DNA from: Betaproteobacteria bacterium
GTDB lineage: Bacteria > Pseudomonadota > Gammaproteobacteria > Burkholderiales > SG8-39
Assembly: GCA_004297625.1 (NCBI GenBank)
Contig: SCTY01000028.1
Location: 8,848-72,847 of the forward strand
Reading direction: 5' to 3'
DNA: 64,000 nt
Both the position numbers and the translations under genes were made by a program. The notes below the pieces were generated by a model. That model was not told where the DNA came from, searched no databases, and saw only the letters and a program-made list of their open reading frames with translations. This document shows positions 31,108-49,391 of the stretch, in pieces. Every line of letters begins with the position of its first letter. The stretch's first letter is position 1.

Positions 31108-31806
31108 TTAGACGGAAACGTTGATCCAGCCGGTGAGCTGGACGAGCCCGGTCATGATCGGCACCAGCGCATCTTCGATGTCGCGCTGGACGGCTCTCAG
31201 TCGCGCGAGTCCTGTTGCCACCTCCTGCGGCGCTTCTTCGAACTCCATGATGAGATCCTCGACCATCGCGACCTTCAGGCCCGGATGGCCGGCAAATCCG
31301 AACGCGCGGGCGCCGACTTGCCAGAGCGCTGCGCGGCCCTTCTCGTCGCGCGCGAGGATTTCGGCGTGCGCCGGCGGCACCGGCCAGTCGCGCATGTAGA
31401 TGGCGAGCGGATATTCGGGCGGCAGGTAGCCGCTCAAAGCCTTTTCGCTGACTCTTGCGGCTTTTCCTACCGAAAACTCGAGAGCCGAAGGTTCGGAGCG
31501 GCCGCCGGCGGCGATGGCGAGGATCTGCGCGCCGAGCCCGACGCCGACGATCGGCAGCTCTTTCTCAAGGCATTTCGTCGCGAGCAGAATCTCCTGTGAA
31601 AGCGTAGGCACGTCGCGCGTGCCGGCGCTGCCCCAAGGGCCGCCGCCGAGAAGGATCAGCCCGTCGCCGAGCGCGTCGGGCTTGGGCAACGGCGTCTTGC
31701 CGGCGAACGGGCGGCAGTAGCGAAAGCGCATGCCCCGGCCCTCGAGGTGATCCTCGATGAGCCCGAGGTACTCCGCCGAAGTGTGCTGAACGACCTGAAT
31801 AGTCAC
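31108..31806 (-). CDS. Class-I glutamine-amidotransferase-like protein lacking the catalytic Cys
   Basis: 232 aa with a GATase1 fold. The nucleophile elbow reads GVGLGAQ instead of G-x-C-x-G-x-Q, and the HPE position reads GHPG. Confidence 0.8.
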   Translation of the reverse strand: MTIQVVQHTSAEYLGLIEDHLEGRGMRFRYCRPFAGKTPLPKPDALGDGLILLGGGPWGSAGTRDVPTLSQEILLATKCLEKELPIVGVGLGAQILAIAAGGRSEPSALEFSVGKAARVSEKALSGYLPPEYPLAIYMRDWPVPPAHAEILARDEKGRAALWQVGARAFGFAGHPGLKVAMVEDLIMEFEEAPQEVATGLARLRAVQRDIEDALVPIMTGLVQLTGWINVSV

Positions 31807-31823
31807 GTCGAGCCAGCGAGCCT

Positions 31824-33032
31824 TTAGTCCTTTTCCACGATGCGCAGCTGGCGGCGGATCTTGCGCAGGTCGTGGCCGTTCGGCGGGAACGGGTAACTCG
31901 CGATGTTCGAGGGCGGCGAATCGCCGTATGGCCGGTCGCAGGCCGACACGTCGTCGCGGAACTTGCCGGGGCAGCCGGAAGTGCGGAAGGCCACGCCTTC
32001 CCCGATGATTTTTTCCAATTCATCTTTTGCAACACCAAAATCGACGACGCGCCCGTTACCGTCGAACTTCATGCGCTCCGCGCGGCCGCCCTTGTAATCG
32101 ATGAGATAGCGCCCGAGCTGCACCCGGCGCCACTGGTCGCGCGGCGTCGCGGGCAGGTGGTCCATGAGCGAGCCGTTCTCGGGGAAGAAGCAGAACATGT
32201 GGCTGTGGCCGCCGAGGTCGACGAGCTTCTGCACCAGCACCAGGACGTCGCGCTCGGTCTCTCCCATGCCGACGATGATGTGCGCGCCGAATTTCTGCGG
32301 CCCGAAAACGTCGCGCGCGTCCATGAGGATTTCCCAGTATTTCGCCCACGAGTGCGGCGAGCGCACGCCCTTGCCGCGCGTACGCTCGAAGATCTCCGGC
32401 GTCGCGGCGTCGAGCGCCACGGTGAAGATATCGGCGCCGAGATCCTTCAGCCGCTTCACGTCTGCGCGCGTCATCGTGGTCGGATTGGACAGGATCGACA
32501 CCGGAATGGTCTTGGGATCGATGCGGTCGGTCCACTGCTTGAGCACCGTGCGCGTGTCCTCGTCGGAGCGCGGATGCGTGATCATCGAGATGCACATGCG
32601 GTGGAACGGGCTCTTCGCCGGATCGCGCGCGACGATGTCGATCGTCCTCTGGAGCGGCACGGCCGGCCAGTCGACACGAATGAAGTTGCGATCGGCGTAA
32701 TCGCGCTCGGCTTCACGATGGCGTGCGAGCCCGCAGTACGCGCAGTTTGCGCGGCAGCCCTCCGGATAGGTGAGCAGCAGATTGAGGCAGCGCGTGCACG
32801 CCGTACGGTGCATCCGGCCGTTCATGATGCCGAGCGTGATCCCAGCCGCCGTCGACATCTGCACGTACTGCGGCGAGCGCATGTTCGGCGTGAGGATGTT
32901 GTAGTTCGGCATGTACACGCCCTGCGGCGCGATGTCGTTCGCCTTGACGCGCGCGCCGTTCTTCAGCTCGACGGGAATGACCCCGGGCGCCCGCGGCGCC
33001 ATGGATTTGACCGGATGTTCGAAGCAGCTCAT
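31824..33032 (-). CDS. Radical-SAM protein, LipS1/LipS2-type lipoyl synthase component
   Basis: 402 aa from MSCFEHPV with the CRANCAYCG (CxxxCxxC) motif, in a shdr-lbpA lipoate-assembly context. S1 versus S2 is not assigned. Confidence 0.85.
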   Translation of the reverse strand: MSCFEHPVKSMAPRAPGVIPVELKNGARVKANDIAPQGVYMPNYNILTPNMRSPQYVQMSTAAGITLGIMNGRMHRTACTRCLNLLLTYPEGCRANCAYCGLARHREAERDYADRNFIRVDWPAVPLQRTIDIVARDPAKSPFHRMCISMITHPRSDEDTRTVLKQWTDRIDPKTIPVSILSNPTTMTRADVKRLKDLGADIFTVALDAATPEIFERTRGKGVRSPHSWAKYWEILMDARDVFGPQKFGAHIIVGMGETERDVLVLVQKLVDLGGHSHMFCFFPENGSLMDHLPATPRDQWRRVQLGRYLIDYKGGRAERMKFDGNGRVVDFGVAKDELEKIIGEGVAFRTSGCPGKFRDDVSACDRPYGDSPPSNIASYPFPPNGHDLRKIRRQLRIVEKD

Positions 33033-33043
33033 GTCGTTTAACC

Positions 33044-34063
33044 TTACGTCCAATACTCCGGGTAGGCGATCCAGCCGCGGCGCAGCGCGGCCTTTCCATG
33101 ATTGGAGCCGAGAAGCTCGCGCCGGCGGCGCATTGCGCGCTCCAGCGCCGCGCGATACACGTCCTCCAGCTCTTCTACGTAATCGGCTATTGCCCCGGTC
33201 GCAGCCGCCTGGCCCGCGAGCCTTCCCGAATGCACGGCGGCCGCGATGCCCGCGCCGGTGACCGGATTCGCGAGCCCGGCCGCGTCTCCCGCCAGCAACA
33301 CGACAGTCTTTTCCAAAGCCCCGTACGGCTCGAGCATGCCGCCTACCGGGATCGCGCCGCCAGTCAGGCGGACGATCTTCGCGCCGACGCGTCCTTCCTC
33401 GACCAGCTTCGAATGCAGCCGGGCGATGATCGGCTTGAGGCGCGCCTTGTGCCGCGGAACGACGCCGGCGCCGAGGTTCGCCACGTCGCCCTTCGGAAAC
33501 AGCCAGCCGTAGCCGCCGGGAATGCCGCGCGAAAGGAAGATATCGGTGGCGTGATACGGCTCGAGCAGGCCTACGGTGATCTGCCGCGTCTCGACGAGCT
33601 CGCTGTTCACGGCTCCGATCGCCTTGCCGGCGCGCGAGCGCGGGCCGTCGGCGCCGACGATGACGGGTGCGCTAAGTCGCCTGCCTGCGGCTTCGACGAT
33701 TCCCTCCCGGGAAATTTTTCTCACGTAGGAAGAAAAGCGCACCTGCGCGCCGGCGCGGCGTGCTGCTTCCACGAGCGCCGCGTCGAATGCGGCGCGGTCG
33801 AGCATGTGCCCCGGAAAATCCGGCTTTACGTCCGGCGCGTCATCCTCGACGAAGGTCGCCATCGCATCGATGCGCTGCCGGACGCTGCCGGAGAGCTCGG
33901 CGCCGATCATCGCAGGGACGAGCTCCGCGCACTGCACCGGCTTTCCGGGCTCGTGCTTGCGGTCGAGCGCGATCACCTTGCACCCTCGGCGCGCGGCTTC
34001 GGCCGCCGCGCTCGCGCCGGCGGGGCCCAGGCCAAGGACGATCACATCGGCCGTTTCCATCAC
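33044..34063 (-). CDS. Geranylgeranyl-reductase-like FAD-dependent oxidoreductase (LipT-like)
   Basis: 339 aa with the dinucleotide fold DVIVLGLGPAGASAAAEAARRG. It lies between the two radical-SAM genes and has a 4-nt overlap with the upstream gene. Confidence 0.85.
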   Translation of the reverse strand: MMETADVIVLGLGPAGASAAAEAARRGCKVIALDRKHEPGKPVQCAELVPAMIGAELSGSVRQRIDAMATFVEDDAPDVKPDFPGHMLDRAAFDAALVEAARRAGAQVRFSSYVRKISREGIVEAAGRRLSAPVIVGADGPRSRAGKAIGAVNSELVETRQITVGLLEPYHATDIFLSRGIPGGYGWLFPKGDVANLGAGVVPRHKARLKPIIARLHSKLVEEGRVGAKIVRLTGGAIPVGGMLEPYGALEKTVVLLAGDAAGLANPVTGAGIAAAVHSGRLAGQAAATGAIADYVEELEDVYRAALERAMRRRRELLGSNHGKAALRRGWIAYPEYWT

Positions 34064-35097
34064 AGCTTCATTTCAACGCGCGGATGAAGCTTGATCGTGC
34101 GGCCGGCCTTCATCGAGCAGCACGCATGCTCCTGCGCGGCCGGGCGGCCGATCGCGTGCGCCACGCCGAGCGCGCCGTCCGCCGGGAAAGCGATGCCGTC
34201 GAGGCCCGCCATCACGGCGTAGGCGTCGGTCACGCGCCGATGCATGCCGGGCGGGCGAGCGCAGCCCAGCAGCACCTGCCGCTCGGCGATTCTTGTTCTT
34301 GTCTCGATAAAAATGCGTCCGACGTCCGTCGTACTCGGCGTCGCAAAGGTGCCGGGCTTCGCGTAGAAGGGCATGATGACGACCAGCACGAGCGAATGAA
34401 TGCGCTGCCGGCTCACGATGTCGAGCGCCGCCGGCTCGCCGAGGATGCGCCCGTAGTGCAGGCCGATCACGATGTGCGGCACGACTTCCATCGGCGTGGC
34501 GCAAAGCGCGGCAAGCGTCGACTCGAAGTCGTCCACCGCGCGCTCGAGGTGATAGACCTCGCGAATGGTCTCCTGCGCACCGATCACGTCCATCATGGCG
34601 GTGTCGACGCCCGCGTCCGCCATGCTGCGCGCGCGCGGCGCATCGAGGAGCGCCGAGTGGATCGCCACCTTGAGGCCCGGATGGTCGCGCTTGAGGCGCT
34701 CGATCACCGGGTAGTAGCGCTCGTAGCGGATCTCGTTGCGGCGTGTCGATCCGCCGGAGAGCAGGAAACCCTGCAGCTCCTGCGTCGCGATCATCTCGCG
34801 CACTTTGCGCTCGAGCGTCTCCGGGCTCGTCGCCGGGATCATGGGCTCGAGGATCTTCGCCTGGCAGTGATCGCACATCAGCGCGCAGCCGCCCGCGGTG
34901 ACCGAGAACGCCGGGAAGCTGTTCTTGCCGCAGCCCTCGAGATCGCAGCTCGAATAGGCCTTGAAGGTGGGCGTCGAGAAGCGGATCGGCCGTCCTGCCA
35001 CGCGCGGTGCGGCGCGCTCGAACTCCCGGACGAGCTCCGGGTCGAGCGGCGCGTCCTCGAGCGCCTCGACGGCGGACAACTTTTCAAACCAGCTCAT
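34060..35097 (-). CDS. Radical-SAM protein, LipS1/LipS2-type lipoyl synthase component
   Basis: 345 aa from MSWFEKLSAV with the CALMCDHCQ (CxxxCxxC) motif. Confidence 0.85.
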   Translation of the reverse strand: MSWFEKLSAVEALEDAPLDPELVREFERAAPRVAGRPIRFSTPTFKAYSSCDLEGCGKNSFPAFSVTAGGCALMCDHCQAKILEPMIPATSPETLERKVREMIATQELQGFLLSGGSTRRNEIRYERYYPVIERLKRDHPGLKVAIHSALLDAPRARSMADAGVDTAMMDVIGAQETIREVYHLERAVDDFESTLAALCATPMEVVPHIVIGLHYGRILGEPAALDIVSRQRIHSLVLVVIMPFYAKPGTFATPSTTDVGRIFIETRTRIAERQVLLGCARPPGMHRRVTDAYAVMAGLDGIAFPADGALGVAHAIGRPAAQEHACCSMKAGRTIKLHPRVEMKL

Positions 35098-36166
35098 GGA
35101 TCTCCTTGCGCACCGGCCCCGGGCGCGGCGCGTCGGCGAGCGACGCGCGCCATTCGGGGAGCACGTCCTCCTCGTCGATGAGCTCGCATGCCAGCGGCGC
35201 GAGCACCGCCCTCGCTTCGTCGGGAAGGCTCGCGGGAATGACACGGCCGGACAACCGGCCCCACAGCCCGGACCAGTAGCGCGCGACCGTCCAGGGGTTG
35301 TAGCCGCCGCCGCCGAGAACCACTGCCACGGGCGCGGCCGCGGCAAGGCGCTCGGTCACCGACCAAAGGGCCACGTTCGAGAGCTGCATCGAGGAAAGCG
35401 GGTCGCCGGCGAGCGCGTCCGCGCCGCAAGTGATGACGACAGCCTCGGGCGCCACGCGTCGCGCGAGCGGCAGGACGATTTTCTCTGTTAAAAAATCGAG
35501 CTCGGAATCATTGAACGCGCGCGGTACCGGCAGATTGCGCGCGCGTCCGGCGCCGATATCCGACGCCGCACCCGTGTACGGCCAGCGGCCCGCCTCGTGG
35601 AGGGACACCGTGTGCACGCGCTCGTCGTTCTCGAACGCGTCCTGCACGGCATCGCCGTGATGCGCATCGAGGTCCACGTAGAGCAGGCGCTCGATGCCGC
35701 CGCCGAGCAGCGTGAGCATCGCGAACACCGGATCGTTGAAGTAGCAGAAGCCGCTCGCGCGGTCGGGGCGTCCATGGTGCGTGCCGCCGGCGGGATGAAA
35801 CGCCATGCGTCCTGCGAGCGCCAGCTCCGCCGCGCGGATCGAGCCGCCCACGCTCGTCGATGCGCGCTCGAAGACGCCGGGGAAAAGCGGGTTTTCCATG
35901 GTGCCGAGGCCGTAGCGCTGTCTTGCTTCGTAGGACACGCTTCCCGTTTCCGAGGCTGTGCGCAACGCTCTCACATAGTGCGGAGCGTGGAACGCCGTGA
36001 GTTGCTCCTCGCTTGCGCACGGGCTTACGGCGAACTCGCCTTCGCCGAACCAGCCGAGTGCCCGGCAAAGGTCGGTCGCGGTCTCCACGCGCGGTATCGC
36101 GAGCGGGTGGTGGCTGCCGTACGCGGCCTGCCGGTAGAGGTCGTGGCCGACGAACACCGGCGGCAT
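35084..36166 (-). CDS. Zn-dependent histone-deacetylase-family (AcuC/HDAC class I-like) deacylase
   Basis: 360 aa with an intact catalytic set: GGTHHG, DLDAHHGD, GADALAGD and GGGGY. Its stop overlaps the lipS start by 14 nt. Confidence 0.9.
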   Translation of the reverse strand: MPPVFVGHDLYRQAAYGSHHPLAIPRVETATDLCRALGWFGEGEFAVSPCASEEQLTAFHAPHYVRALRTASETGSVSYEARQRYGLGTMENPLFPGVFERASTSVGGSIRAAELALAGRMAFHPAGGTHHGRPDRASGFCYFNDPVFAMLTLLGGGIERLLYVDLDAHHGDAVQDAFENDERVHTVSLHEAGRWPYTGAASDIGAGRARNLPVPRAFNDSELDFLTEKIVLPLARRVAPEAVVITCGADALAGDPLSSMQLSNVALWSVTERLAAAAPVAVVLGGGGYNPWTVARYWSGLWGRLSGRVIPASLPDEARAVLAPLACELIDEEDVLPEWRASLADAPRPGPVRKEIHELV

Positions 36167-36178
36167 TTTTCCGGGAAG

Positions 36179-36406
36179 CTACTTGCGCTTCATGTAGAAC
36201 GTGAACTCCTTCTGCGCCTCGCTGTGCGAAAGGAGCTCATTGCCGGTCTGCTTGGAGAATGCCTGGAAATCTTTCACCGAGCCCGGGTCGGTCGCCACGA
36301 TCTTCAGCACCTGGCCGGCCTGCATATCGTTGAGCGCCTTTTTTGCGCGCAGGATGGGAAGCGGGCAGTTGAGGCCGCGGGCGTCGAGTTCTTTATCGAA
36401 GTTCAT
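36179..36406 (-). CDS. tusA: Sulfur carrier protein TusA
   Basis: 75 aa, MNFDKELDARGLNCPLPILRAKKAL, with the CPxP active-site motif. Confidence 0.92.
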   Translation of the reverse strand: MNFDKELDARGLNCPLPILRAKKALNDMQAGQVLKIVATDPGSVKDFQAFSKQTGNELLSHSEAQKEFTFYMKRK

Positions 36407-36440: not shown

Positions 36441-36716
36441 TCAGCCGAACCGCGCCAGCAGCTCGGCCACCTTGGCTGCGTGCTCCGTACGTCCCTGGCG
36501 CCCCGGAGCGGGCTCCTCGCGGATCATGCACGACACCATCTCGTAGAACGCGCGGTCGAGCGCCCTGCGCGCCGCGGCAAGCTGCTGCGCGATGCTCTCG
36601 CAAGGGTGGTCTTCCGCGATCATCCGCCGTACCGCGTGCACCTGGCCCTCGATGCGCGCCAGGCGCGCATCCATCGCCTTCTTGGCCTCGGGGTCGTGCA
36701 TCCGTGGGTCGTTCAT
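36441..36716 (-). CDS. CsoR/RcnR/CstR-family (DUF156) transcriptional repressor
   Basis: 91 aa, ...RLARIEGQVHAVRRMIAEDHPCESIAQQLAAARRAL...MVSCMI. Two Cys residues and no obvious Cu-type C-H-C triad. Confidence 0.85.
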   Translation of the reverse strand: MNDPRMHDPEAKKAMDARLARIEGQVHAVRRMIAEDHPCESIAQQLAAARRALDRAFYEMVSCMIREEPAPGRQGRTEHAAKVAELLARFG

Positions 36717-36726
36717 GGCGGCGCAC

Positions 36727-36744
36727 TATACACCACCGGGTATA
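36727..36744. promoter_or_regulatory. Candidate CsoR-family operator 1
   Basis: TATAC-accaccgg-GTATA inverted repeat in the 145-bp divergent spacer. Confidence 0.35.
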
Positions 36745-36820
36745 CAAAACGCTTTTTCTCTCATGATGCGTTGCCGCATAAGCGAAATAGCACGGTCCCA
36801 TCAGAGGAATTTTTTCACGC

Positions 36821-36837
36821 ATACTCCCCTCCTGTAT
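36821..36837. promoter_or_regulatory. Candidate CsoR-family operator 2
   Basis: ATAC-tcccctcct-GTAT inverted repeat with the same half-sites as operator 1, 25 nt upstream of the 36862 start. Confidence 0.35.
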
Positions 36838-36861
36838 TAACCTCAGCCGCGAAAGGGAATC

Positions 36862-37467
36862 ATGGCCACTACCACAGACCTCCAGTCGCTCGATCAATTG
36901 ATCGAACAACGCCTCGACGCGCTGCTGCCGAAGAAGCTCGCCGAGCTGCGCGAGAAGCAGACGCCCTCGCTGACGATCATTGCCACCAAAGGCACGCTCG
37001 ACTGGGCGTATCCCCCGTTCATTCTTTCGAGCACCGCAGCGGCGCTCGGCTGGAACGTGTCGGTGTTCTTCACGTTCTATGGATTGAACCTCCTGAAGAA
37101 GGACATCAGCGACCTCAAGGTGAGCCCGCTCGGCAACCCGGGCATGCCGATGAAGATGCCTTTCGGTCCCGAGTGGTTCAAGAGCATCAACTGGAACATC
37201 CCGAACGCGGTGCAGAGCATCGTGCCCGGCTTCGAGACGCTCGCCACCGCGCTCATGAAGCAGACCATCCACAACAAGGGCGTCGCCGGCGTGGAAGAGC
37301 TGCGCACCGCGTGCGTCGAAGGCGGCGTGAACCTGATCGGCTGCCAGATGACCGTCGATCTCTTCGGCTTCACGCGCGACGATTTCATTCCGGAAGTGAA
37401 GGAGTATTGCGGCGCCGCCACGTTCCTGCCGATGGCGCGCGACGCCGACGTGAGCCTATTCATCTGA
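36862..37467 (+). CDS. DsrE/DsrF/DsrH-like (DsrE_2) family protein
   Basis: 201 aa, ...LTIIATKGTLDWAYPPFILSSTAAALGWNVSVFFTFYGL...GVNLIGCQMT. Divergent from the CsoR-like gene. Confidence 0.75.
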   Translation: MATTTDLQSLDQLIEQRLDALLPKKLAELREKQTPSLTIIATKGTLDWAYPPFILSSTAAALGWNVSVFFTFYGLNLLKKDISDLKVSPLGNPGMPMKMPFGPEWFKSINWNIPNAVQSIVPGFETLATALMKQTIHNKGVAGVEELRTACVEGGVNLIGCQMTVDLFGFTRDDFIPEVKEYCGAATFLPMARDADVSLFI

Positions 37468-37494
37468 TCTAGACCGAAACCAAAGGAGGGGGAA

Positions 37495-38823
37495 ATGAGG
37501 AAGACACTGGTGGCCGCGGCCACCGCGGCGGCGCTCGTGCCCGCCATCGCAACGGCGACCGACGGCTATTTTTCGCACGGCTACGGCATGAAGTCGAAAG
37601 GCCGCGGCGGCGCCTCGACCGCCATGGCGACCGATAGCTTCGGCGGCGCAGTCAACCCGGCCACCATGGTATGGGCCGGCGACCGCCTCGATGTCGGCAT
37701 CGACTGGTTCAGCCCGAAGCGCAAAGCCGAGCGCACCGACAGCGCGGCCGGGATGAACGGTAGTGCGGACAGCGGCAGCGAGAACTTCCTCGTCCCGGAG
37801 TTCGGCTACAACAAGATGCTGAATCCGAGCATGTCGCTCGGCGTCACGGTCTACGGCAACGGCGGCATGAACACCGACTATCCCGGGGACCAGATCGCCG
37901 CCGGAAACCCGGTGTGCGCGGGCTTCAATCCCGGCTCCACCGGCCCTTACAACCTGCTGTGCGGCGACGGCAAGCTGGGGGTTGACCTCATGCAGCTCAT
38001 CGTCGCGCCGACCTTCGCCATGAAAGCGCTCGGCGGCAACCACTCGTTCGGCATCTCGCCGCTCCTCGGCTACCAGCGCTTCAAGGCCGATGGCCTGCAG
38101 GGCTTCCAGGGCTACACGCCCAACCCGGCGACCTTCGCCACCGACAACCACCTCACCAACCGCGGCTATGACACCTCGACCGGCTACGGTCTGCGTTTCG
38201 GCTGGATGGGCAAGGTGACCCCGACGGTGGCTCTCGGCGCGGCGTACTCGACGAAGATGAACATGAAGAAGTTCGACAAGTACCGCGACCTCTTCGCCGA
38301 CCAGGGCGACTTCGACATTCCGGAGAACTGGAACCTCGGCGTCGCGTTCAACGCCACGCCGCGCGTCACGATCGCCGCCGATTACCAGCGCATCAACTAC
38401 AGCGGAATCAATTCCGTCGGCAATCCCAGCACCAATGGCGGGCTCACGACGGTCGGCACGCTGGGCTGCAGCACCTGCCGGGGATTCGGATGGCAGGACG
38501 TGAACGTGATCAAGATCGGCGTCGAGTACCAGTACACCTCGGCGCTCACGCTGCGCGCGGGCTACAACCATAGCGACAACCCGATCCAGTCGCGCGACGT
38601 GACGTTCAACATCCTCGCGCCGGGCGTGGTGCAGGATCACCTTACCGCGGGCTTCACCTACGCGCTGAGCCAGTCGTCCGAGATCACGATGGCGTACATG
38701 CACGCGTTCAACAAATCGGTGACCGGCGCGAGCCTGTTCAACAACTGGGTCCCGGGCGCGGGCAACGAGAAGATCCAGATGCACGAGGACTCGCTCGGCA
38801 TCGCGTTCGGCTGGAAGTTCTAA
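37495..38823 (+). CDS. FadL/OmpP1/TodX-family outer-membrane channel for hydrophobic compounds
   Basis: 442 aa with a signal peptide, an aromatic-rich beta-barrel pattern, the NPA/NPS hatch region near the N-terminus and a C-terminal ...GIAFGWKF. Confidence 0.85.
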   Translation: MRKTLVAAATAAALVPAIATATDGYFSHGYGMKSKGRGGASTAMATDSFGGAVNPATMVWAGDRLDVGIDWFSPKRKAERTDSAAGMNGSADSGSENFLVPEFGYNKMLNPSMSLGVTVYGNGGMNTDYPGDQIAAGNPVCAGFNPGSTGPYNLLCGDGKLGVDLMQLIVAPTFAMKALGGNHSFGISPLLGYQRFKADGLQGFQGYTPNPATFATDNHLTNRGYDTSTGYGLRFGWMGKVTPTVALGAAYSTKMNMKKFDKYRDLFADQGDFDIPENWNLGVAFNATPRVTIAADYQRINYSGINSVGNPSTNGGLTTVGTLGCSTCRGFGWQDVNVIKIGVEYQYTSALTLRAGYNHSDNPIQSRDVTFNILAPGVVQDHLTAGFTYALSQSSEITMAYMHAFNKSVTGASLFNNWVPGAGNEKIQMHEDSLGIAFGWKF

Positions 38824-38912
38824 GGCTCAGGCCACCGGCACGGACTTGCCGAACTGCTCGGCGAGCAGGCTCTCGCCCTGGTCGAGGACGAAGTAGCGGA
38901 ACGACTCGGCCG

Positions 38913-39478
38913 CAGGCGATCCTGCAGGCCGCCAACGAGTGCGACAGCCCCGGTCATCCTGCAGACCTCGGCGGGCGCGCGCAAGTACGCCGGCGAGCCC
39001 TTCCTCAGGCACCTCGTCGCCGCCGCGGTCGAGTCGTACCCGCATATTCCGGTGTGCGTCCACCAGGACCACGGCGCGAGCCCCGCGGTGTGCCAGGCAT
39101 CGATCCGCTCGGGCTTCACGAGCGTAATGATGGACGGATCGCTGAAGGAAGACATGAAGACGCCGGCGCCTTACGAGTACAACGTGCAGGTGACGCGCCG
39201 CGTCGCCGAACTGGCGCACGCGGTCGGCGTTTCGGTCGAAGGCGAGCTCGGCTGCCTCGGCTCTCTGGAGAGCGGCGAGGCGGGCGAGGAGGACGGCGTC
39301 GGCGCGCAAGCTCGCCCGCCAGCCGACCGGCGAGGTGCTGGCGATCGACCGCATCCGCGCGATCCTGCAGGGCATCCGCAACGGGGACGCGAGCGCTTCG
39401 AGCAGTTCGGCTGCGCCGGCCGCGCCGCGCGCATCCGTCCGGCGCCGCTAGAGATGCTTGCCCGCCGCTACGCCGTTC
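38913..39478 (+). pseudogene. Decayed class-II fructose-bisphosphate aldolase (CbbA/Fba-type)
   Basis: Homology runs [13 protein letters not shown] (frame 3), then a +1 shift near 38951. Frame 1 then reads [21 protein letters not shown]...HQDHGASP...SVMMDGS...GEEDGVGA, followed by a deletion. Frame 2 reads [23 protein letters not shown], followed by a deletion. Frame 1 then reads [29 protein letters not shown]. The N-terminal ~30 aa are absent. Confidence 0.8.
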
Positions 39479-39873
39479 AGGCCCCGGCGCATCATGGGAA
39501 TGACGACGTCGTCGAACGCCTCGTTCCACGCTTTCTCGGCCGCAGGGGTCCATTGCGCGCCGAGCTGAGGCGCCAGCACCTCCAGGAACACCTCCTTGAA
39601 GTTGCCGAGATCGTGCCCGTCGAGCGCGAACGGCTTGTGCGCCGCGCCGAGCTTGCGCAGGCGAGGCGCGATGTCGGTGCGATCGTCGGCGAGATCGGCC
39701 AGCAGCGCCGCGGTGAACAGCATCTTTTCGATATCGGCAACCTGCAGCTTGCGCGGAAAGAGCTTGCGATAGCCCGGGAAGCGCTCGAAAAACCGCTGGT
39801 AGAACTCCTCGACGAATTGCTCCCGGCGATCGCCGAGCAGTTGCCATGTTTCTTCTATGAGCTCGGTATTCAT
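39448..39873 (-). CDS. Single-domain globin (sensor/protoglobin-like family)
   Basis: 141 aa, [33 protein letters not shown]...[13 protein letters not shown]. It has a B10-type Tyr and a proximal His. Confidence 0.8.
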
Positions 39874-39958
39874 TGAACAGTCCCTGGAGTGCGCGTCTGC
39901 GCTCATTTTCCCCCGGGTATTCCGAGGCGGGTTTTGATCTGGGTCATACGGCAATCTG

Positions 39959-45809: not shown

Positions 45810-45854
45810 CGAATCGTTGCCGGCGCGCAGCGCCGCCCCGAATAAAATCGAGCC

Positions 45855-47084
45855 ATGCGCGACATCGCAACGAGCCAGACGATCCTGGTGGTCGGCGGGG
45901 GCGTGAGCGGCATGACCGCTGCGCTCGAAGCCGCGGAATGCGGCAAGCAGGTGCTCCTCGTGGAGAAATCGCCGACGCTCGGCGGCCGCACCGCGCTTCT
46001 CTACCGCTACTTCCCGAAGCTCTGCCATCCGACGTGCGGGCTGGAAATCAACCTGCGCCGCCTGAAGGGCAACCGCAATGTGCGCGTGATGACGATGGCG
46101 GAGGTCGTCAGGGTCGAAGGCCGCCGCGGCGATTACAGCGTCACGCTGCGCGTCGCGCCGCGCTTCGTGAACGAAAACTGCACGGCCTGCGGCGCCTGCG
46201 CCGAGGCGGTGGGCGCCGAAATTCCGAATCCCTGGAACTACAACCTCAACCGCATGAAGGCGGCGTACCTGCCCCATGCCATGGCTTACCCGCAGCGCTA
46301 CGTGCTCGATGCGTCGATCGCCGGCACGCCGGACGCCGAGAAGGCAAGAACGGCGTGCAAGTACGGCGCCATCGATCTCGAAATGAAGGAGCAGACGCTC
46401 ACGGTGAGCGCCGGCGCGGTCGTGTGGGCGACGGGCTGGAAGCCGTATGACGCGGCCAAGATCCAGCCCTACGGCTATGGGCGCTACGCGAACGTGATTA
46501 CCAGCGTGGAATTCGAGCGCCTGGCCGATCCGCACGGCCCGACCGGCGGGCGCATCGTGCGGCCCTCCGACGGCAAGGAGGCGAAGAACATCGCCTTCAT
46601 CCAGTGCGCGGGATCGCGCGACGAGAACCATCTGCGCCACTGCTCGCGCATCTGCTGCATGGCCTCGCTCAAGCACACGCAGTTCGTGCGCGAGGCCTAC
46701 GGCGAGGCGGCGCGCTCGACGATCTACTACATCGACATCCGCGCCATCGACCGCTTCGAGGACTTCTACCGCAAGGTGCGCGCCGACCGCACCGTGAAGT
46801 TCGTGAAGTCCAAGCCGGCGCGCATCGCGGAGGACCGGGCCAGCGGCGATGTCGTGCTGCACGGTGTCGATACCGAGGGCTATCACCGCTACGCTGCGCA
46901 GCACGATCTCGCGGTGCTTGCGATCGGCATGGAGACCGCCGTGCCGCTGCCGCAGGACGCCGAAGTGTTCCCCGCGGGCTGCGCCGCCGACGCGCTCGAT
47001 GTCAACCGCTCGGTGCAAAGCTCGACCGCCGCCGCGCTGCGCGCGATCCAGGTCGTCAACCGCGCGGCCCGGGCCGAATCATGA
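45855..47084 (+). CDS. qmoA: QmoA (HdrA-like flavoprotein)
   Basis: 409 aa, ILVVGGGVSGMTAALEAAECG...CAGSRDENHLRHCSRICC. Confidence 0.85.
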   Translation: MRDIATSQTILVVGGGVSGMTAALEAAECGKQVLLVEKSPTLGGRTALLYRYFPKLCHPTCGLEINLRRLKGNRNVRVMTMAEVVRVEGRRGDYSVTLRVAPRFVNENCTACGACAEAVGAEIPNPWNYNLNRMKAAYLPHAMAYPQRYVLDASIAGTPDAEKARTACKYGAIDLEMKEQTLTVSAGAVVWATGWKPYDAAKIQPYGYGRYANVITSVEFERLADPHGPTGGRIVRPSDGKEAKNIAFIQCAGSRDENHLRHCSRICCMASLKHTQFVREAYGEAARSTIYYIDIRAIDRFEDFYRKVRADRTVKFVKSKPARIAEDRASGDVVLHGVDTEGYHRYAAQHDLAVLAIGMETAVPLPQDAEVFPAGCAADALDVNRSVQSSTAAALRAIQVVNRAARAES

Positions 47085-49246
47085 AGACCGCGGCCTATCT
47101 CTGCGGCGGCTGCGGCATCGCCGAGCAGCTCGACACCGCACGCCTTGCCGCGATCGCCGAGCGCGAGGGCAAGGTGGATCTCGTGCGCGAGCATCCGTTC
47201 CTTTGCTCGGCCGAAGGGGTGCAGGCGATCCGCGAGGGCATCGACAAAGACGGCGCCACCCACGTGATGCTCGCCGCCTGCTCGCGGCGCGCGAAAACGG
47301 AGGCCTTTTACTTCCCCGACGTCGCGGTGGCGCGCGCCAACTTGCGCGAAGGCGTGGTCTGGATCCAGGAGAAGGGAGAAGCGGCGCAAGAGATGGCCGA
47401 CGACTACGTGCGCATGGCGTGCGCGGAACTGAAGCGCATGCAGGTGCCGAAAGCCGGCCCCGACACCGGGAAGAGCAAGCGGGTGCTCGTGGTCGGCGGC
47501 GGCATTTCGGGACTGACGGCGGCGCTCGAGGCGGCCGAGGCCGGCTACGAGGCGCTCATCGTCGAGAAGGAAGCGGCGCTCGGCGGCTGGGCTGCGCGCC
47601 TGCACCGCCGCATTCCGGAGCGCGCGCCTTTCAAAGATCCCGCGGAAACGGGCGTGCCGGCGCTTGTCGATGCCGTAACTCGAAATTCAAGAATTAAACT
47701 GCAATTGGGAACCACGGTTGCGCAAACCGCGGGCGCGCCCGGGCGCTTTCGCGTCACGCTGTCCAACGGGCGAACCGAAGAGGTCGGCGCCATCGTGCAG
47801 GCGAGCGGCTTCTCGCTCTACGACGCCGCGCGCCTCGCCGAGTTCTCCTACGGAAAGTCGCCCGACATCGTGGACCAGGCGGGGCTTGAGGCATTGGCGA
47901 AAAAATCGATCCCGATTCGTCGCCCGTCGGACAACAAGGAAGTCAAGCAGGTGGTTTTCGTGCAGTGCGCGGGGCAGCGCGACGACTCGGGCAAGCACCT
48001 GCCCTACTGCTCGGGCCACTGCTGCGCCACCTCGATGAAGCAGGCGATGTACTTCAAGGACGCGAATCCGGCCGTCGACACGGTGGTGATCTACACCGAC
48101 CTGCGCGTGCCGGGGAACGGAGAAGACTTCTACCGCTCTGCGCAGGCGAAGGGCGTCACCTTCACCAAGGGCAAGGTGTCGGCTGTCGAGGCCGACGGCG
48201 CGGTGAAGTTCAGGGACCTGATCCTTGATGAGGACACTCAAATTAAAGCCGACTTGGTGGTGCTCGCGACCGGGCAGGTGCCCAATTCCGGCGTCAACAT
48301 CGACAACCCCGACGAGCCGGACGCGAACGGCGCGAAGCCGATCTCGATCCTGAACCTCGAGTACCGGCAGGGAAGCGACCTGCCGCGGCTCGCGCACGGA
48401 TTCTCCGACTCGCACTTCATCTGCTTCCCGTACGAGACGCGCCGCACCGGCATCTACACCGCCGGGCCGGTGCGCCGGCCGATGGACATCGCGCAGGCGG
48501 TGGAGGACGCGACCGGCGCCGCGCTGAAGGCGATCCAGGCGACCGAGAACGCGGCGCTCGGGCGCGCGGCGCATCCGCGCTCCGGCGACCTCTCGTTCCC
48601 GCTGGTGCGTCTCGACGGTTGCACGCAGTGCAAGCGCTGCACCGTGGAATGCCCGTTCGGCGCCATCGACGAGGACGAGAAGCGCTACCCCGTCTTCAAC
48701 GAGAGCCGCTGCCGGCGCTGCAGCACGTGCATGGGCGCCTGCCCGGTGCGCGTGATCTCCTTCGAGAACTACTCGGTGGACTCCGTCGGCGCGCAGATCA
48801 AGGCGGTCGGGATCCCCGACGAGACCGAGGAGAAGCCGCGCATCCTCATCCTCGCGTGCGAGAACGACGCCTATCCGGCGCTCGACATGGCCGGGCTGCA
48901 GCGCGTCAAGTACTCGGCCGCGGTGCGCGTGATACCGGTGCGCTGCCTCGGCTCGGTGAACCAGGTCTGGGTGACCGACGCCCTGAATGCCGGCTACGAC
49001 GGCATCATGCTGCTGGGCTGCAAGCACGGCGACGACTACCAGTGCCACTTCGTGCGCGGCTCGGCGCTCGCGGCCGAGCGCATGAGCAAGATCGACGATA
49101 CGCTGAAGCAGCTCGCGCTCGAGAACGAGCGCGTCATCACCTGCGAGGCCGCGATCACCGACATCGCGAGGCTGCCGCGCCTGATCGACGAGTACGCGCA
49201 GACCATCGAGCGCATCGGCCTTTCGCCGCTCAAGGGGTTCGCATGA
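47081..49246 (+). CDS. qmoB: QmoB (HdrA-like flavoprotein with ferredoxin and MvhD-like C-terminal domains)
   Basis: 721 aa, VLVVGGGISGLTAALEAAEAG...CAGQRDDSGKHLPYCSGHCC...CTQCKRCTVECP...CRRCSTCMGACP...ILILACENDAYPALD. ATGA overlap with qmoA. Confidence 0.85.
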   Translation: MKTAAYLCGGCGIAEQLDTARLAAIAEREGKVDLVREHPFLCSAEGVQAIREGIDKDGATHVMLAACSRRAKTEAFYFPDVAVARANLREGVVWIQEKGEAAQEMADDYVRMACAELKRMQVPKAGPDTGKSKRVLVVGGGISGLTAALEAAEAGYEALIVEKEAALGGWAARLHRRIPERAPFKDPAETGVPALVDAVTRNSRIKLQLGTTVAQTAGAPGRFRVTLSNGRTEEVGAIVQASGFSLYDAARLAEFSYGKSPDIVDQAGLEALAKKSIPIRRPSDNKEVKQVVFVQCAGQRDDSGKHLPYCSGHCCATSMKQAMYFKDANPAVDTVVIYTDLRVPGNGEDFYRSAQAKGVTFTKGKVSAVEADGAVKFRDLILDEDTQIKADLVVLATGQVPNSGVNIDNPDEPDANGAKPISILNLEYRQGSDLPRLAHGFSDSHFICFPYETRRTGIYTAGPVRRPMDIAQAVEDATGAALKAIQATENAALGRAAHPRSGDLSFPLVRLDGCTQCKRCTVECPFGAIDEDEKRYPVFNESRCRRCSTCMGACPVRVISFENYSVDSVGAQIKAVGIPDETEEKPRILILACENDAYPALDMAGLQRVKYSAAVRVIPVRCLGSVNQVWVTDALNAGYDGIMLLGCKHGDDYQCHFVRGSALAAERMSKIDDTLKQLALENERVITCEAAITDIARLPRLIDEYAQTIERIGLSPLKGFA

Positions 49247-49264
49247 TGCTGACAGCAGGCCGTT

Positions 49265-49374
49265 GCCCCCCTGACAAGGGGGGAGCGAGCGTTTTCTGCG
49301 AGCGGGGGGTTTGCATTTCGCGAAAACCAACCCCCCGTTCGCCTTCGGCTCACGCCCCCCTTGACAGGGGGGCG
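49265..49374 (+). repeat. ~110-bp three-hairpin intergenic repeat element, copy B (qmoB-hdrC spacer)
   Basis: Hairpins are CCCCCC-tgacaa-GGGGGG, gcgagcggggggtt...aaccccccgttcgc and CGCCCCCC-ttgaca-GGGGGGCG. It has the same orientation relative to transcription as copy A. Confidence 0.85.
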
Positions 49375-49391
49375 GCAGCGCAGGTGTATCC

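What the first reader, a model, noticed from the sequence alone, without database searches (positions are those of the whole stretch)
36441..38823. CsoR/CstR-like repressor divergent from a DsrE_2 protein and a FadL-type outer-membrane channel, with two matching operators
The 145-bp divergent spacer holds two inverted repeats with identical half-sites: TATAC-N8-GTATA at 36727-36744 and ATAC-N9-GTAT at 36821-36837. They are reminiscent of the AT-flanked, GC-core pseudo-palindromes used by CsoR-family tetramers. The regulator has two Cys and no obvious C-H-C copper site, so a persulfide-sensing (CstR-like) role fits the context. Its apparent target operon encodes a DsrE_2 sulfur-transferase-like protein and a FadL/TodX channel. 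FadL channels import hydrophobic molecules by lateral release into the outer membrane. In a sulfur-oxidation locus, this suggests uptake of a hydrophobic sulfur species such as S8, polysulfanes or an organosulfur compound. That step is poorly understood in sulfur oxidisers.
Basis: partly seen in the sequence, partly recalled or inferred. Interest (0 to 1): 0.6.

Follow-up and report, generated by a model that had tools for sequence, protein, structure and literature searches.

The report
Sulfur-sensing repressor controlling an outer-membrane channel
A small repressor of the copper-sensor (CsoR) family, very probably re-tuned to sense reactive sulfur, sits back to back with an operon for a sulfur-carrier protein and a FadL-type outer-membrane channel, and this channel is tied to sulfur-oxidation genes in dozens of sulfur bacteria, hinting at an undescribed entry route for a greasy sulfur compound.

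Summary
The genes and both inverted repeats lie at the stated coordinates.

- **Operators.** ATAC-N8/9-GTAT occurs only twice in the 64 kb, both times in this spacer. Both sites are the best-conserved non-coding blocks in 10 orthologous spacers, and they resemble the published streptococcal cst operator.
- **Regulator.** It is a CsoR/RcnR-family protein but not a canonical CsoR, CstR, FrmR or RcnR. Its two invariant cysteines are C39 (position X) and C63 (one residue before Y). This C-x23-C pattern holds in 80 of 136 nearest cluster representatives. Six of seven sampled divergent members lie beside persulfide dioxygenase, TauE, rhodanese, YeeE or sox genes. A persulfide-type sensor is therefore likely but unproven.
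tusA follows the regulator, possibly reading through into the lipoate-assembly and sHdr genes.
- **Channel linkage.** A dsrE2 gene lies directly upstream of the FadL-like gene in 62 of 76 genomic loci, including Thiobacillus denitrificans and T. thioparus. Only 7 of the 80 loci returned carry the regulator.
- **Substrate.** Unknown. A hydrophobic sulfur species is plausible. Octanoate or lipoate supply for LbpA is a serious rival.

I found no paper describing the linkage.

The parts
36441..36716 (-). CsoR/RcnR-family repressor, 91 aa, with a non-canonical dithiol (C39 and C63, i.e. C-x23-C)
   Evidence: It matches PF02583 at E 6e-19. C39, C63 and H7 are invariant in the 120 homologues of at least 77% identity. 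The AF2 model has pLDDT 88.9 and three helices at 9-34, 39-65 and 73-90, placing C39 at the start of helix 2 and C63 near its end. It scores far below the NCBIfam cut-offs for FrmR, RcnR and RicR.
36179..36406 (-). tusA sulfur-carrier gene, 34 bp downstream of the regulator on the same strand (probable reg-tusA operon)
   Evidence: It matches PF01206 at E 7e-25 and carries the CPLP motif. The reg-tusA pair is kept in every regulator-bearing locus that reaches the tusA side: L001-L006, L019, L051, L057, L058, L063, L072, L081 and L087.
36727..36744 (.). Operator site 1, TATAC-ACCACCGG-GTATA (ATAC-N8-GTAT core), 11 bp from the regulator's ATG
   Evidence: Sequence. It is conserved as TATAC(A/C)C-N4-(G)GTAT in 10 of 10 orthologous spacers. 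On the minus strand it overlaps a TATAGT/TATATT hexamer lying 6-8 nt before the ATG (read), which suggests autoregulation. The same ATAC-N8-GTAT type lies upstream of distant relatives L091, L092, L094 and L095.
36821..36839 (.). Operator site 2, ATACTCCCCTCCTGTATTA (ATAC-N9-GTAT core), 23 bp upstream of the dsrE2 ATG
   Evidence: Sequence. It is conserved as ATACT(C/G)C-N5-(A/G/T)GT(A/G)TTA in 10 of 10 spacers. It is the only match in the 64 kb, even with 2 mismatches allowed. The centre-to-centre distance to site 1 is 91.5-95.5 bp in 8 of 10 loci.
36717..36861 (.). Divergent promoter spacer. It also holds conserved blocks CCGCATAAG (36774-36782) and CCATCAGAGGAA (36798-36809) of unknown role
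   Evidence: Alignment A1. No sigma-70 consensus promoter was called. No Rfam family matched in the spacer.
36862..37467 (+). dsrE2 sulfur-carrier gene, 201 aa, with a 33-aa N-terminal extension
   Evidence: It matches PF13686 at E 3e-44. It passes NCBIfam DsrE2 equivalog NF047629, 213.9 bits against a cut-off of 210. Cys161 in CQMTVDLFG is invariant in 65 of 65 sequences. Maximum 19-residue hydropathy is 1.35, so there is no clear transmembrane helix. No signal peptide is visible.
37495..38823 (+). FadL/TodX-family outer-membrane channel, 442 aa, 27 bp after dsrE2 (same operon)
   Evidence: It matches PF03349 at E 6e-24. It has a signal peptide, an NPA hatch motif (N54-P55-A56, invariant in A2) and a C-terminal Phe. 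The AF2 model has pLDDT 84.7 and shows a beta-barrel with an N-terminal plug. Top Foldseek hits are E. coli FadL and TodX, at E about 1e-44 and TM about 0.7. A dsrE2 gene lies directly upstream in 62 of 76 homologous loci.
31108..36166 (-). Co-directional genes after tusA that may be read through from the regulated promoter: HDAC-like, radical-SAM LipS-like, FAD/GGR LipT-like, radical-SAM and GATase, followed by dsrE3, shdr and lbpA
   Evidence: Pfam assignments. Gaps are 12 bp or overlaps. No intergenic terminator-like site lies on the minus strand. Co-transcription is inferred, not shown.

Best explanation
This is a four-gene regulatory module, fadL<-dsrE2 | reg->tusA, embedded in a cytoplasmic sulfur-oxidation island (sHdr-LbpA, SoeABC).

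The 91-aa CsoR-family protein most likely binds as a tetramer to two pseudo-palindromic operators. Site 1 (ATAC-N8-GTAT) abuts its own start codon, so it autoregulates reg-tusA and perhaps the downstream lip and shdr genes. Site 2 (ATAC-N9-GTAT) lies about 20 bp before dsrE2 and represses dsrE2-fadL.

The only conserved candidate sensor residues are C39, at the N-terminus of helix 2, and C63, at the C-terminal end of helix 2. In the antiparallel CsoR dimer these should face each other across subunits. I infer that sulfane sulfur (persulfide or polysulfide) cross-links them as di-, tri- or tetrasulfide, as in CstR. That would release the DNA and induce the sulfur carriers TusA and DsrE2 together with the channel.

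The FadL-type channel gives a hydrophobic molecule passage across the LPS barrier. My preferred guess is zero-valent sulfur (S8, polysulfane or an organic polysulfane), which the cytoplasmic DsrE2/TusA relay then captures and feeds to sHdr or Dsr.

Shown: gene identities, operator conservation, Cys conservation and gene linkage.
Inferred: repressor action, the effector, the cross-link, the direction of transport and the substrate.
For: Operators:
- The sites are unique in the 64 kb.
- They are conserved in 10 orthologous spacers while the flanks diverge, and their positions relative to both start codons are kept.
- They resemble the experimentally used S. mitis cst operator (PMC8643695).
- ATAC-N8-GTAT sites lie upstream of four distant relatives.

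Sensor:
- C39 and C63 are invariant in 120 close homologues.
- Both Cys are kept in 80 of 136 nearest 50%-cluster representatives, where positions Y and Z are not His or Cys and H7 is not kept.
- Six of seven sampled divergent C-x23-C members sit next to PDO, TauE, rhodanese, YeeE-half or sox genes, the same repertoire as cst operons.
- The precedents are CstR and YrkD, which control DsrE/TusA-type genes and respond to sulfane sulfur (PMC9918477), and TTHA1953, which controls sox (PMC10318464).
- The model places C39 and C63 at opposite ends of helix 2.

Channel:
- It has the FadL fold and the NPA hatch motif.
- dsrE2 is directly upstream in 62 of 76 loci, and at least 71 of 76 lie in a tusA/dsrE2 or lip-shdr context.
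- T. denitrificans has soeABC-rhd-tusA-dsrE2-fadL with no lip genes nearby.
- A secreted SCP2-like lipid-carrier gene follows fadL in several loci.
- How sulfur is imported is acknowledged as open (PMC11094781).
Against: - No experiment bears on the effector.
- The second Cys is not at the canonical CstR Z position. A bis-thiolate Cu(I) site cannot be excluded from sequence.
- One sampled C-x23-C relative (L092, with an extra His at Z) sits beside HMA and RND metal-efflux genes.
- No consensus promoter or transcription start is known, so site 2 could be a promoter-overlap site or a roadblock.
- Most tusA-dsrE2-fadL loci lack this regulator, so it is not essential to the module.
- Nothing identifies the channel's substrate. 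fadL follows lipT-lipS directly in some genomes, and the sHdr-type ligase needs free octanoate or lipoate.
- FadL channels are passive, so the flux could equally be outward.
Confidence: 0.5

Rival explanations
1. The regulator and operators work as above, but the FadL-like channel imports free octanoate, lipoate or another fatty acid. These are needed to lipoylate LbpA through the sHdr-associated ligase and LipS/LipT pathway. The channel would then be a cofactor-supply gene, not a sulfur-substrate channel.
For: FadL is the fatty-acid channel family. fadL directly follows lipT-lipS in L039, L041, L053 and L059, and lipT-lipS-dsrE2-fadL occurs in L015, L026, L043, L050, L056, L060 and L070. In this window the lip genes lie in the divergent operon. 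The sHdr-type LplA uses free octanoate or lipoate and not octanoyl-ACP (PMC6067878). An SCP2-like lipid carrier follows fadL in some loci.
Against: The commonest neighbour is dsrE2 (62 of 76), not a lip gene. Thirty-six loci are tusA-dsrE2-fadL, and in the one I annotated (T. denitrificans, soeABC-rhd-tusA-dsrE2-fadL) no lip gene lies nearby. From general knowledge, C8 acids normally cross porins without FadL, and autotrophs cannot rely on external octanoate. The protein is very far from the E. coli FadL equivalog, 36.8 bits against a cut-off of 585.
Confidence: 0.2
2. The channel is an exit, not an entry. It would let hydrophobic zero-valent sulfur (or another hydrophobic by-product) made during sulfide or thiosulfate oxidation leave the periplasm or outer membrane. 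It would be induced when cytoplasmic sulfane sulfur rises, by analogy with TauE in cst operons.
For: FadL-type channels are passive, so direction follows the gradient (general knowledge of the family). CstR-type regulons are detoxification regulons that include exporters such as TauE, and TauE/PDO operons sit beside relatives of this regulator.
Against: The known FadL mechanism takes substrate from outside and releases it laterally into the outer membrane (general knowledge). Linkage to the cytoplasmic carriers DsrE2 and TusA fits supply better than disposal. There is no direct evidence either way.
Confidence: 0.1
3. The regulator senses something other than sulfane sulfur. Candidates are Cu(I) bound by the two thiolates (with or without Met64), or a general thiol oxidant or electrophile such as tetrathionate, sulfite-derived species, H2O2 or an aldehyde.
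For: Sources name the family 'metal-sensitive', 'FrmR family' or 'CsoR family' regulators. The best single-sequence PDB hits are FrmR and InrS. Relative L092 is next to HMA and RND efflux genes. TTHA1953 lost DNA binding on disulfide formation with Cu(II) or H2O2 but not with NaHS (PMC10318464).
Against: It has no C-H-C, H-C-H-H or Pro2 signature. Met64 and H7 are not conserved in the wider C-x23-C group. None of the annotated neighbours is a metal-efflux or formaldehyde-detoxification gene. Six of seven sampled relatives are in sulfur contexts.
Confidence: 0.15
4. The inverted repeats are chance features of an AT-richer spacer, and the gene adjacency is incidental.
For: The arms are only 4-5 bp. 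Allowing any 4-mer inverted-repeat family, two copies arise in 4% of shuffled spacers. The repeat finder did not report them at its default thresholds.
Against: Both sites are conserved in sequence and position in 10 independent loci. They are unique in the 64 kb. They match operators of relatives. The four-gene module recurs in different flanking contexts.
Confidence: 0.02

Closest known systems
CstR (S. aureus, E. faecalis, S. pneumoniae/mitis) and YrkD (B. licheniformis), the CsoR-family persulfide sensors
   Same: They share the PF02583 fold and two conserved Cys with no metal-binding His. The operators are pseudo-palindromes with ATAC/GTAT arms (cst operator ATATACCCTTATGGGGTATAT). They regulate sulfurtransferase genes, and the YrkD cluster includes DsrE-type YrkE and TusA-type YrkI (PMC8643695, PMC9918477).
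   Different: Canonical CstR is x-C-x-C, with Cys at X and Z. Here the second Cys is at Y-1 and Z is Glu. Sequence similarity to CstR structures is weak, at E 3e-4. The host is a chemolithotrophic betaproteobacterium. The targets are dissimilatory sulfur-relay genes plus an outer-membrane channel, not an SQR/PDO detoxification set.
TTHA1953 of Thermus thermophilus, a CsoR-family repressor of the sox pathway
   Same: It is a CsoR-family dithiol repressor of energy-yielding sulfur-oxidation genes. Its DNA site is a short AT-arm palindrome (TATACCTTGGTATGG), and binding is lost on Cys oxidation (PMC10318464).
   Different: TTHA1953 has C39 and C68 in canonical spacing. Its half-sites are 4 bp apart rather than 8-9 bp. 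Its targets lie far from the regulator gene, and it did not respond to NaHS.
FrmR, RcnR, InrS and CsoR (solved structures 5LCY, 5LBM, 5FMN, 4ADZ, 2HH7)
   Same: They share the family and the three-helix fold. FrmR is the best single-sequence PDB hit, at E 4e-10, and Cys X is conserved.
   Different: The regulator lacks Pro2/His60 (FrmR), H-C-H-H (RcnR), H-C-H-C (InrS) and C-H-C (CsoR). It falls far below the NCBIfam equivalog cut-offs.
rhd-tusA-dsrE2 sulfur-relay cluster of Allochromatium vinosum and other sulfur oxidisers
   Same: TusA and DsrE2 are encoded together beside cytoplasmic sulfur-oxidation genes. The role of DsrE2 is still unclear (PMC11094781). T. denitrificans has soeABC-rhd-tusA-dsrE2.
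   Different: Here tusA and dsrE2 are split onto divergent operons by an inserted regulator, and no rhodanese is adjacent. A FadL-type gene follows dsrE2. No paper in the library holds FadL, TusA and DsrE together.
FadL (E. coli) and TodX, TbuX, CymD, the hydrophobic-substrate outer-membrane channels
   Same: It matches Pfam PF03349, has a barrel with an N-terminal hatch and NPA motif, and gives Foldseek E about 1e-44 to FadL and TodX.
   Different: Foldseek identity to these structures is only 14-20%, and the score is 36.8 bits against 585 for the FadL equivalog. It has a near-invariant Cys pair (C141, C156) in predicted loop L2. The genomic context is sulfur oxidation, not beta-oxidation or aromatic catabolism.
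CT2230 of Chlorobaculum tepidum, a FadL-family gene in a sulfide-repressed regulon
   Same: [quoted passage not shown]
   Different: It is in a different phylum with a different putative operator and regulator, and no DsrE2/TusA linkage was reported. It is likewise untested.

Membership tests
CsoR/RcnR superfamily (PF02583, DUF156) | Profile match above the curated cut-off | tested here: met
   68.6 bits against a cut-off of 22.8, E 6e-19.
CsoR/RcnR superfamily (PF02583, DUF156) | Three-helix protomer with Cys X at the N-terminus of helix 2 | tested here: met
   AF2 model with pLDDT 88.9 and helices at 9-34, 39-65 and 73-90. C39 is the first residue of helix 2.
CsoR/RcnR superfamily (PF02583, DUF156) | Binds a pseudo-palindromic operator overlapping the regulated promoter | tested here: inconclusive
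   Conserved ATAC-N8/9-GTAT sites lie next to both start codons. There is no binding assay and no transcription start.
CsoR (Cu(I) sensor) | x-C-H-C ligand set at positions X, Y and Z | tested here: not met
   X is C39, Y is M64 and Z is E68.
CsoR (Cu(I) sensor) | Neighbouring copA or copZ genes | tested here: not met
   The neighbours are tusA, dsrE2, fadL, lip and shdr genes.
CstR (persulfide sensor) | x-C-x-C, with Cys at X and at Z (X+29) | tested here: not met
   The second Cys is at X+24, i.e. Y-1, and Z is Glu. The register was checked against the FrmR, CstR (7MQ1) and MtCsoR alignments.
CstR (persulfide sensor) | Regulates adjacent sulfurtransferase or sulfur-detoxification genes | tested here: met
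   tusA and dsrE2 flank it here. Relatives sit by rhodanese, TauE, PDO, YeeE and sox genes.
CstR (persulfide sensor) | DNA release on intersubunit di-, tri- or tetrasulfide formation by persulfides | not testable with these tools
   This needs protein chemistry.
FrmR (formaldehyde sensor) | N-terminal Pro2 plus Cys35 and His60, and the equivalog score | tested here: not met
   The N-terminus is MNDPRMH and Y is Met. NF008464 scores 42.4 bits against a cut-off of 133.
RcnR / InrS (Ni/Co sensors) | H-C-H-H or H-C-H-C ligand set | tested here: not met
   There is no His at Y or Z. NF011613 scores 39.3 bits against a cut-off of 138.
FadL/TodX outer-membrane channel family (PF03349) | Profile match above the cut-off | tested here: met
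   84.7 bits against a cut-off of 29.7.
FadL/TodX outer-membrane channel family (PF03349) | Beta-barrel plugged by an N-terminal hatch carrying the NPA motif | tested here: met
   AF2 pLDDT is 84.7. Foldseek gives E 1e-44 and TM about 0.7 to FadL and TodX. N54-P55-A56 is invariant in 40 sequences.
FadL/TodX outer-membrane channel family (PF03349) | Lateral opening (strand kink) releasing substrate into the outer membrane | not testable with these tools
   Model coordinates cannot be inspected.
E. coli FadL orthologue (long-chain fatty-acid transporter) | NCBIfam equivalog score | tested here: not met
   NF007988 scores 36.8 bits against a cut-off of 585.
DsrE2 sulfur carrier (NF047629 / PF13686) | Equivalog score and conserved active-site Cys | tested here: met
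   213.9 bits against a cut-off of 210. Cys161 is invariant in 65 of 65.
rhd-tusA-dsrE2 relay cluster | Rhodanese, TusA and DsrE2 genes adjacent | tested here: not met
   tusA and dsrE2 are present but divergent, and none of the adjacent genes is a rhodanese. The full rhd-tusA-dsrE2(-fadL) set is present in T. denitrificans locus L055.

The most novel reading that the evidence does not exclude
Neutrophilic betaproteobacterial sulfur oxidisers (Thiobacillus, Sulfuricella, Sulfuritalea, Sulfuriferula and Gallionellaceae relatives) have a dedicated uptake route for hydrophobic zero-valent sulfur. A FadL-type outer-membrane channel, sometimes with a periplasmic SCP2-like carrier, delivers S8 or polysulfane to the DsrE2/TusA relay that feeds sHdr or Dsr. 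In one lineage the route is switched by a previously uncharacterised class of CsoR-family persulfide sensor with a C-x23-C dithiol. That class is widespread in Proteobacteria next to PDO, TauE, YeeE and sox genes.
Probability: 0.25. Interest if true: 0.8.

Novelty: new variant of a known kind. Interest (0 to 1): 0.6.

Why it matters
Two open questions become testable.

1. How insoluble elemental sulfur crosses the outer membrane, and how sulfane sulfur reaches the cytoplasmic sHdr and Dsr systems, is explicitly unresolved (PMC11094781). A FadL-type channel gene sits directly after dsrE2 in 62 of 76 loci, including genetically tractable Thiobacillus denitrificans. That gives a concrete gene to delete. 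It also suggests a role for DsrE2, whose function is still unclear.

2. Known CsoR-family persulfide sensors are Gram-positive or Thermus x-C-x-C proteins. A large proteobacterial group with the second Cys shifted to Y-1, associated with PDO, TauE, rhodanese, YeeE and sox genes, would extend the W-X-Y-Z rule used to predict effector specificity. It would also give sHdr-type sulfur oxidisers a third regulator type beside ArsR-type SoxR and sHdrR.

If the channel instead supplies octanoate or lipoate, that would still explain where the sHdr lipoate-assembly pathway gets its free acid.

Tried and rejected
- **Further operators.** I searched the 64 kb for more sites, with degenerate patterns and up to 2 mismatches. 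None was found, so within this window the regulon is local.
- **RNA elements.** Rfam found nothing relevant in the spacer. Two sub-threshold archaeal snoRNA matches lie inside coding or fragment sequence and are dismissed as chance.
- **Promoters and terminators.** The sigma-70 consensus scan found no promoter in the spacer. The -10 and -35 assignments I read by eye (TATAGT in site 1, TATTAA in site 2, CATAAG in the middle block) are unproven and not relied on. Terminator scans gave only chance-level hits inside genes.
- **Dimer model.** I built a tandem regulator alignment with a linker to measure the C39-C63' distance.
- **DsrE2 as a membrane protein.** Maximum hydropathy is 1.35, and published DeepTMHMM doubts exist. 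I dropped it as a firm claim.
- **FadL cysteines as sulfur-activating thiols.** C141 and C156 are conserved but lie in a predicted extracellular loop and are most simply a disulfide. The CxxC of this window (C325, C328) is kept in only about 24 of 84 sequences. I do not use it as evidence.
- **PDB 6AHX as TTHA1953.** The paper does not mention the entry, so I make no claim.
- **Literature.** No paper holds FadL, TusA and DsrE together. None holds cyclooctasulfur with FadL. Only incidental hits combine FadL with 'sulfur-oxidizing'.

Full report
**1. Observation**

The window has about 66% G+C across this region.

- 36441-36716(-), 91 aa: PF02583, E 6e-19.
- 36862-37467(+), 201 aa: PF13686, E 3e-44. 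It also passes NCBI's DsrE2 equivalog model, 213.9 bits against a cut-off of 210.
- 37495-38823(+), 442 aa: PF03349 OMPP1/FadL/TodX, E 6e-24.

The 145-bp spacer holds TATAC-N8-GTATA at 36727-36744 and ATAC-N9-GTAT at 36821-36837. ATAC-N7-10-GTAT matches only these two places in the 64 kb, against 0.34 expected. Shuffling the spacer gives P = 3.5e-5 for two such sites. Allowing any 4-mer inverted-repeat family, P is only 0.042. On its own the window is therefore only suggestive.

**2. The operators are real**

The regulator has hundreds of close homologues. I obtained ten distinct orthologous loci with the same divergent arrangement, through contig look-ups and a genome scan with the FadL protein.

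In the alignment of their spacers (A1), the coding ends and two blocks stand out. One is TATAC(A/C)C-N4-(G)GTAT, 6-12 bp from the regulator's ATG in nine of ten loci (38 bp in L081). The other is ATACT(C/G)C-N5-(A/G/T)GT(A/G)TTA, 8-36 bp from the dsrE2 ATG. The centre-to-centre distance is 91.5-95.5 bp in 8 of 10 loci.

Site 1 is close to the S. mitis cst operator used for CstR binding assays, ATATACCCTTATGGGGTATAT (PMC8643695). ATAC-N8-GTAT sites also lie upstream of four regulators only 34-46% identical to this one.

No further site exists in the window. On the minus strand, site 1 overlaps a TATAGT/TATATT hexamer 6-8 nt before the ATG. This is read and suggests autoregulation and perhaps a leaderless transcript. 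That is inference only. No consensus promoter was called.

Two further conserved blocks, CCGCATAAG at 36774-36782 and CCATCAGAGGAA at 36798-36809, are unexplained.

**3. What kind of regulator**

The best PDB matches are FrmR (E 4e-10), InrS, 6AHX and then CsoR. CstR structures score only 3e-4. The regulator falls far below the NCBIfam cut-offs for FrmR, RcnR and RicR.

Aligned to FrmR, MtCsoR and CstR, C39 is position X, M64 is Y and E68 is Z. The second Cys, C63, sits at Y-1. It is therefore none of C-H-C (CsoR), x-C-x-C (CstR), P-C-H-x (FrmR) or H-C-H-H/C (RcnR, InrS), as those classes are defined in PMC8643695.

C39, C63 and H7 are invariant in 120 close homologues. A search of 1.84 billion cluster representatives shows a narrow immediate clade. 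It also shows that 80 of the 136 nearest full-length representatives keep both Cys at this spacing. In them Y and Z are not His or Cys and H7 is not kept. Only 17 are canonical x-C-x-C and 6 are C-H-C.

I sampled seven divergent members of this C-x23-C group:

| Locus | Neighbouring genes |
|---|---|
| L089 | Divergent YeeE halves and PDO; sox genes alongside |
| L090 | YeeE halves and PDO nearby |
| L091 | reg-rhodanese-TauE-PDO operon |
| L093 | Next to soxYZAXB |
| L094 | Divergent YeeE halves; reg-TauE-PDO |
| L095 | Divergent YeeE halves, PDO and SulP |
| L092 | HMA and RND efflux genes; this member has an extra His at Z |

Six of seven are in sulfur contexts. An AF2 model (pLDDT 88.9) gives the three-helix CsoR protomer, with C39 at the first residue of helix 2 and C63 two residues before its end. 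In the antiparallel dimer known for this family, those ends should meet across subunits. I could not test this.

Precedents exist for CsoR-family dithiol repressors of sulfur genes. They are CstR, YrkD with DsrE-type YrkE and TusA-type YrkI (PMC9918477), and TTHA1953 for sox (PMC10318464). I conclude that this is very likely a thiol-based sensor of reactive sulfur, of an uncharacterised variant type. The effector is not shown.

**4.

tusA (36179-36406, PF01206, E 7e-25) follows the regulator after 34 bp, in every regulator-bearing locus that reaches that side.

In this window tusA is followed on the same strand, with gaps of 12 bp or overlaps, by:

- an HDAC-like gene;
- two radical-SAM genes, a FAD/GGR-like gene and a GATase, i.e. 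the sHdr-type lipoate-assembly set;
- dsrE3, shdrC1B1A...C2B2 and lbpA.

YeeE lies beyond. No intergenic terminator-like site was found. Read-through from the regulated promoter into the sHdr-LbpA system is possible but unproven.

On the other side, beyond fadL, lie SoeCBA and Qmo/HdrA-like genes. The description of a sulfur-oxidation locus is correct.

**5. The FadL-like gene**

- It has a signal peptide, an invariant NPA hatch motif and a C-terminal Phe.
- The AF2 model has pLDDT 84.7 and pTM 0.82.
- Its best structural matches are E. coli FadL and TodX, at Foldseek E about 1e-44 and TM about 0.7.
- By sequence the nearest solved proteins are TodX, TbuX and CymD, at E 1e-16 to 1e-11. It scores 36.8 bits against 585 for the FadL equivalog. 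It is a family member but not an orthologue of any characterised channel.

The genome scan found 480 relatives. The best 80 come from Thiobacillus thioparus, T. denitrificans, Sulfuriferula multivorans and from Sulfuritalea, Sulfuricella, Gallionellaceae and other Burkholderiales or Nitrosomonadales MAGs.

Of 76 loci with upstream sequence:

- 62 have dsrE2 directly upstream on the same strand, with gaps of 14-375 bp;
- 5 have dsrE2 1-5 kb upstream;
- of the 9 without dsrE2, L039, L041 and L059 have lipT-lipS directly upstream by Pfam, and L053 has the same ORF layout as L059.

The 62 adjacent cases fall into three classes. Thirty-six are tusA>dsrE2>fadL, for example T. denitrificans with soeABC-rhd-tusA-dsrE2-fadL. 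Seven have the divergent regulator. Nineteen are other arrangements, typically lipT-lipS>dsrE2>fadL.

A signal-peptide SCP2-like gene follows fadL in L001, L017, L031, L039, L065 and L087.

The channel is thus an accessory of the cytoplasmic sulfur-oxidation gene sets, and the regulator is a lineage-specific addition. No paper in the library holds FadL, TusA and DsrE together. The only related idea is a speculation about CT2230 in Chlorobaculum tepidum.

**6. Mechanism and rivals**

My best reading is as follows. The reduced repressor occupies both operators. Sulfane sulfur cross-links C39 and C63' and relieves repression of reg-tusA(-...) and dsrE2-fadL. The channel admits a hydrophobic sulfur species, which DsrE2 and TusA capture (DsrE2 Cys161 is invariant).

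My confidence in each step differs:

| Step | Confidence |
|---|---|
| Repressor acts through these operators | about 0.8 |
| Effector is sulfane sulfur | about 0.6 |
| Channel substrate is a sulfur species | about 0.3 |

The strongest rival for the channel is supply of free octanoate or lipoate to the sHdr-type ligase (PMC6067878). It is favoured by the lipT-lipS-fadL arrangements. It is disfavoured by the tusA-dsrE2-fadL class; the one such locus I annotated (T. denitrificans) has no lip genes nearby. Export of S0, and a metal or general-oxidant effector, remain possible.

**7. Novelty**

The regulator is a new variant of a known kind: a CsoR-family dithiol sensor with a shifted second Cys, in proteobacterial lithotrophs. 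The dsrE2-fadL linkage appears undescribed. It makes the question of sulfur entry directly testable in cultured Thiobacillus.

Noticed in passing
window 38824-39876, compared with L087 7326-7960: In a relative whose FadL is 99% identical (GCA_040960765.1), fadL is followed by a 174-aa secreted SCP2-like gene, then cbbR, cbbLS, cbbX, FBPase and PRK. The window lacks the SCP2 gene cleanly. It keeps about 108 bp of the cbbR 3' end, then jumps at about 38932 into the middle of a class II fructose-bisphosphate aldolase gene (only Pfam profile positions 38-147 are present). This is a deletion, a strain variant or an assembly join.
   Followed up: partly
window 35084-36166 (-): A histone-deacetylase/AcuC-like gene (PF00850, E 6e-66) sits between tusA and the lipoate-assembly genes, 12 bp after tusA. 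The same neighbour is seen in L044, L081 and L087. Its role in an sHdr-LbpA cluster is unexplained; it could be a deacylase acting on LbpA or a regulator of it.
   Followed up: no
window 36774-36782 and 36798-36809: Blocks CCGCATAAG and CCATCAGAGGAA lie between the two operators and are conserved in eight of the ten orthologous spacers (diverged in L063 and L019). They match no consensus promoter. They could be promoter elements or the site of a second factor.
   Followed up: partly
L001 7330-7842, L087 7326-7850, also L017, L031, L039, L065: A secreted SCP2-like protein (PF02036; signal peptide; 4 Cys present in both sequences inspected) is encoded directly after fadL in a minority of loci. 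It is a candidate periplasmic carrier for the channel's hydrophobic cargo.
   Followed up: partly
FadL residues 141/156 and 325/328 (window 37915-37962 and 38467-38478): C141 and C156 are near-invariant in the FadL clade (75-78 of 84) and fall in predicted extracellular loop L2. A second Cys pair in loop L5 varies in position, and the CxxC of this window is kept in about 24 of 84. They are probably disulfides, but they recall the old idea of outer-membrane thiols activating S0.
   Followed up: partly
L089, L090, L091, L093, L094, L095 (relatives of the regulator): A large proteobacterial C-x23-C subgroup of PF02583 regulators lies beside split YeeE/YedE-like genes (PF04143 and DUF6691), persulfide dioxygenase, TauE, rhodanese and sox genes, often with an ATAC-N8-GTAT site upstream. 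It appears uncharacterised in the searched literature.
   Followed up: partly
L092 3588-4279: One C-x23-C relative, which has an additional His at position Z, is divergent from an HMA-domain gene and an RND efflux pair. The subgroup may therefore include metal sensors.
   Followed up: no
window 45846-49991 (+) and L004 2225-7258: A Qmo/HdrA-like set lies near the module both here and in unrelated contigs L004-L006. It comprises a FAD protein, a 740-930-aa HdrA-like protein with an MvhD/FlpD domain, a ferredoxin-like protein and a CCG-domain protein.
   Followed up: no
window 39150-39211 (+): A sub-threshold Rfam match to archaeal C/D-box sR45 (36.7 bits against 40, E 3e-6) lies inside the aldolase fragment. 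It is almost certainly chance in a bacterial, high-GC coding region.
   Followed up: no
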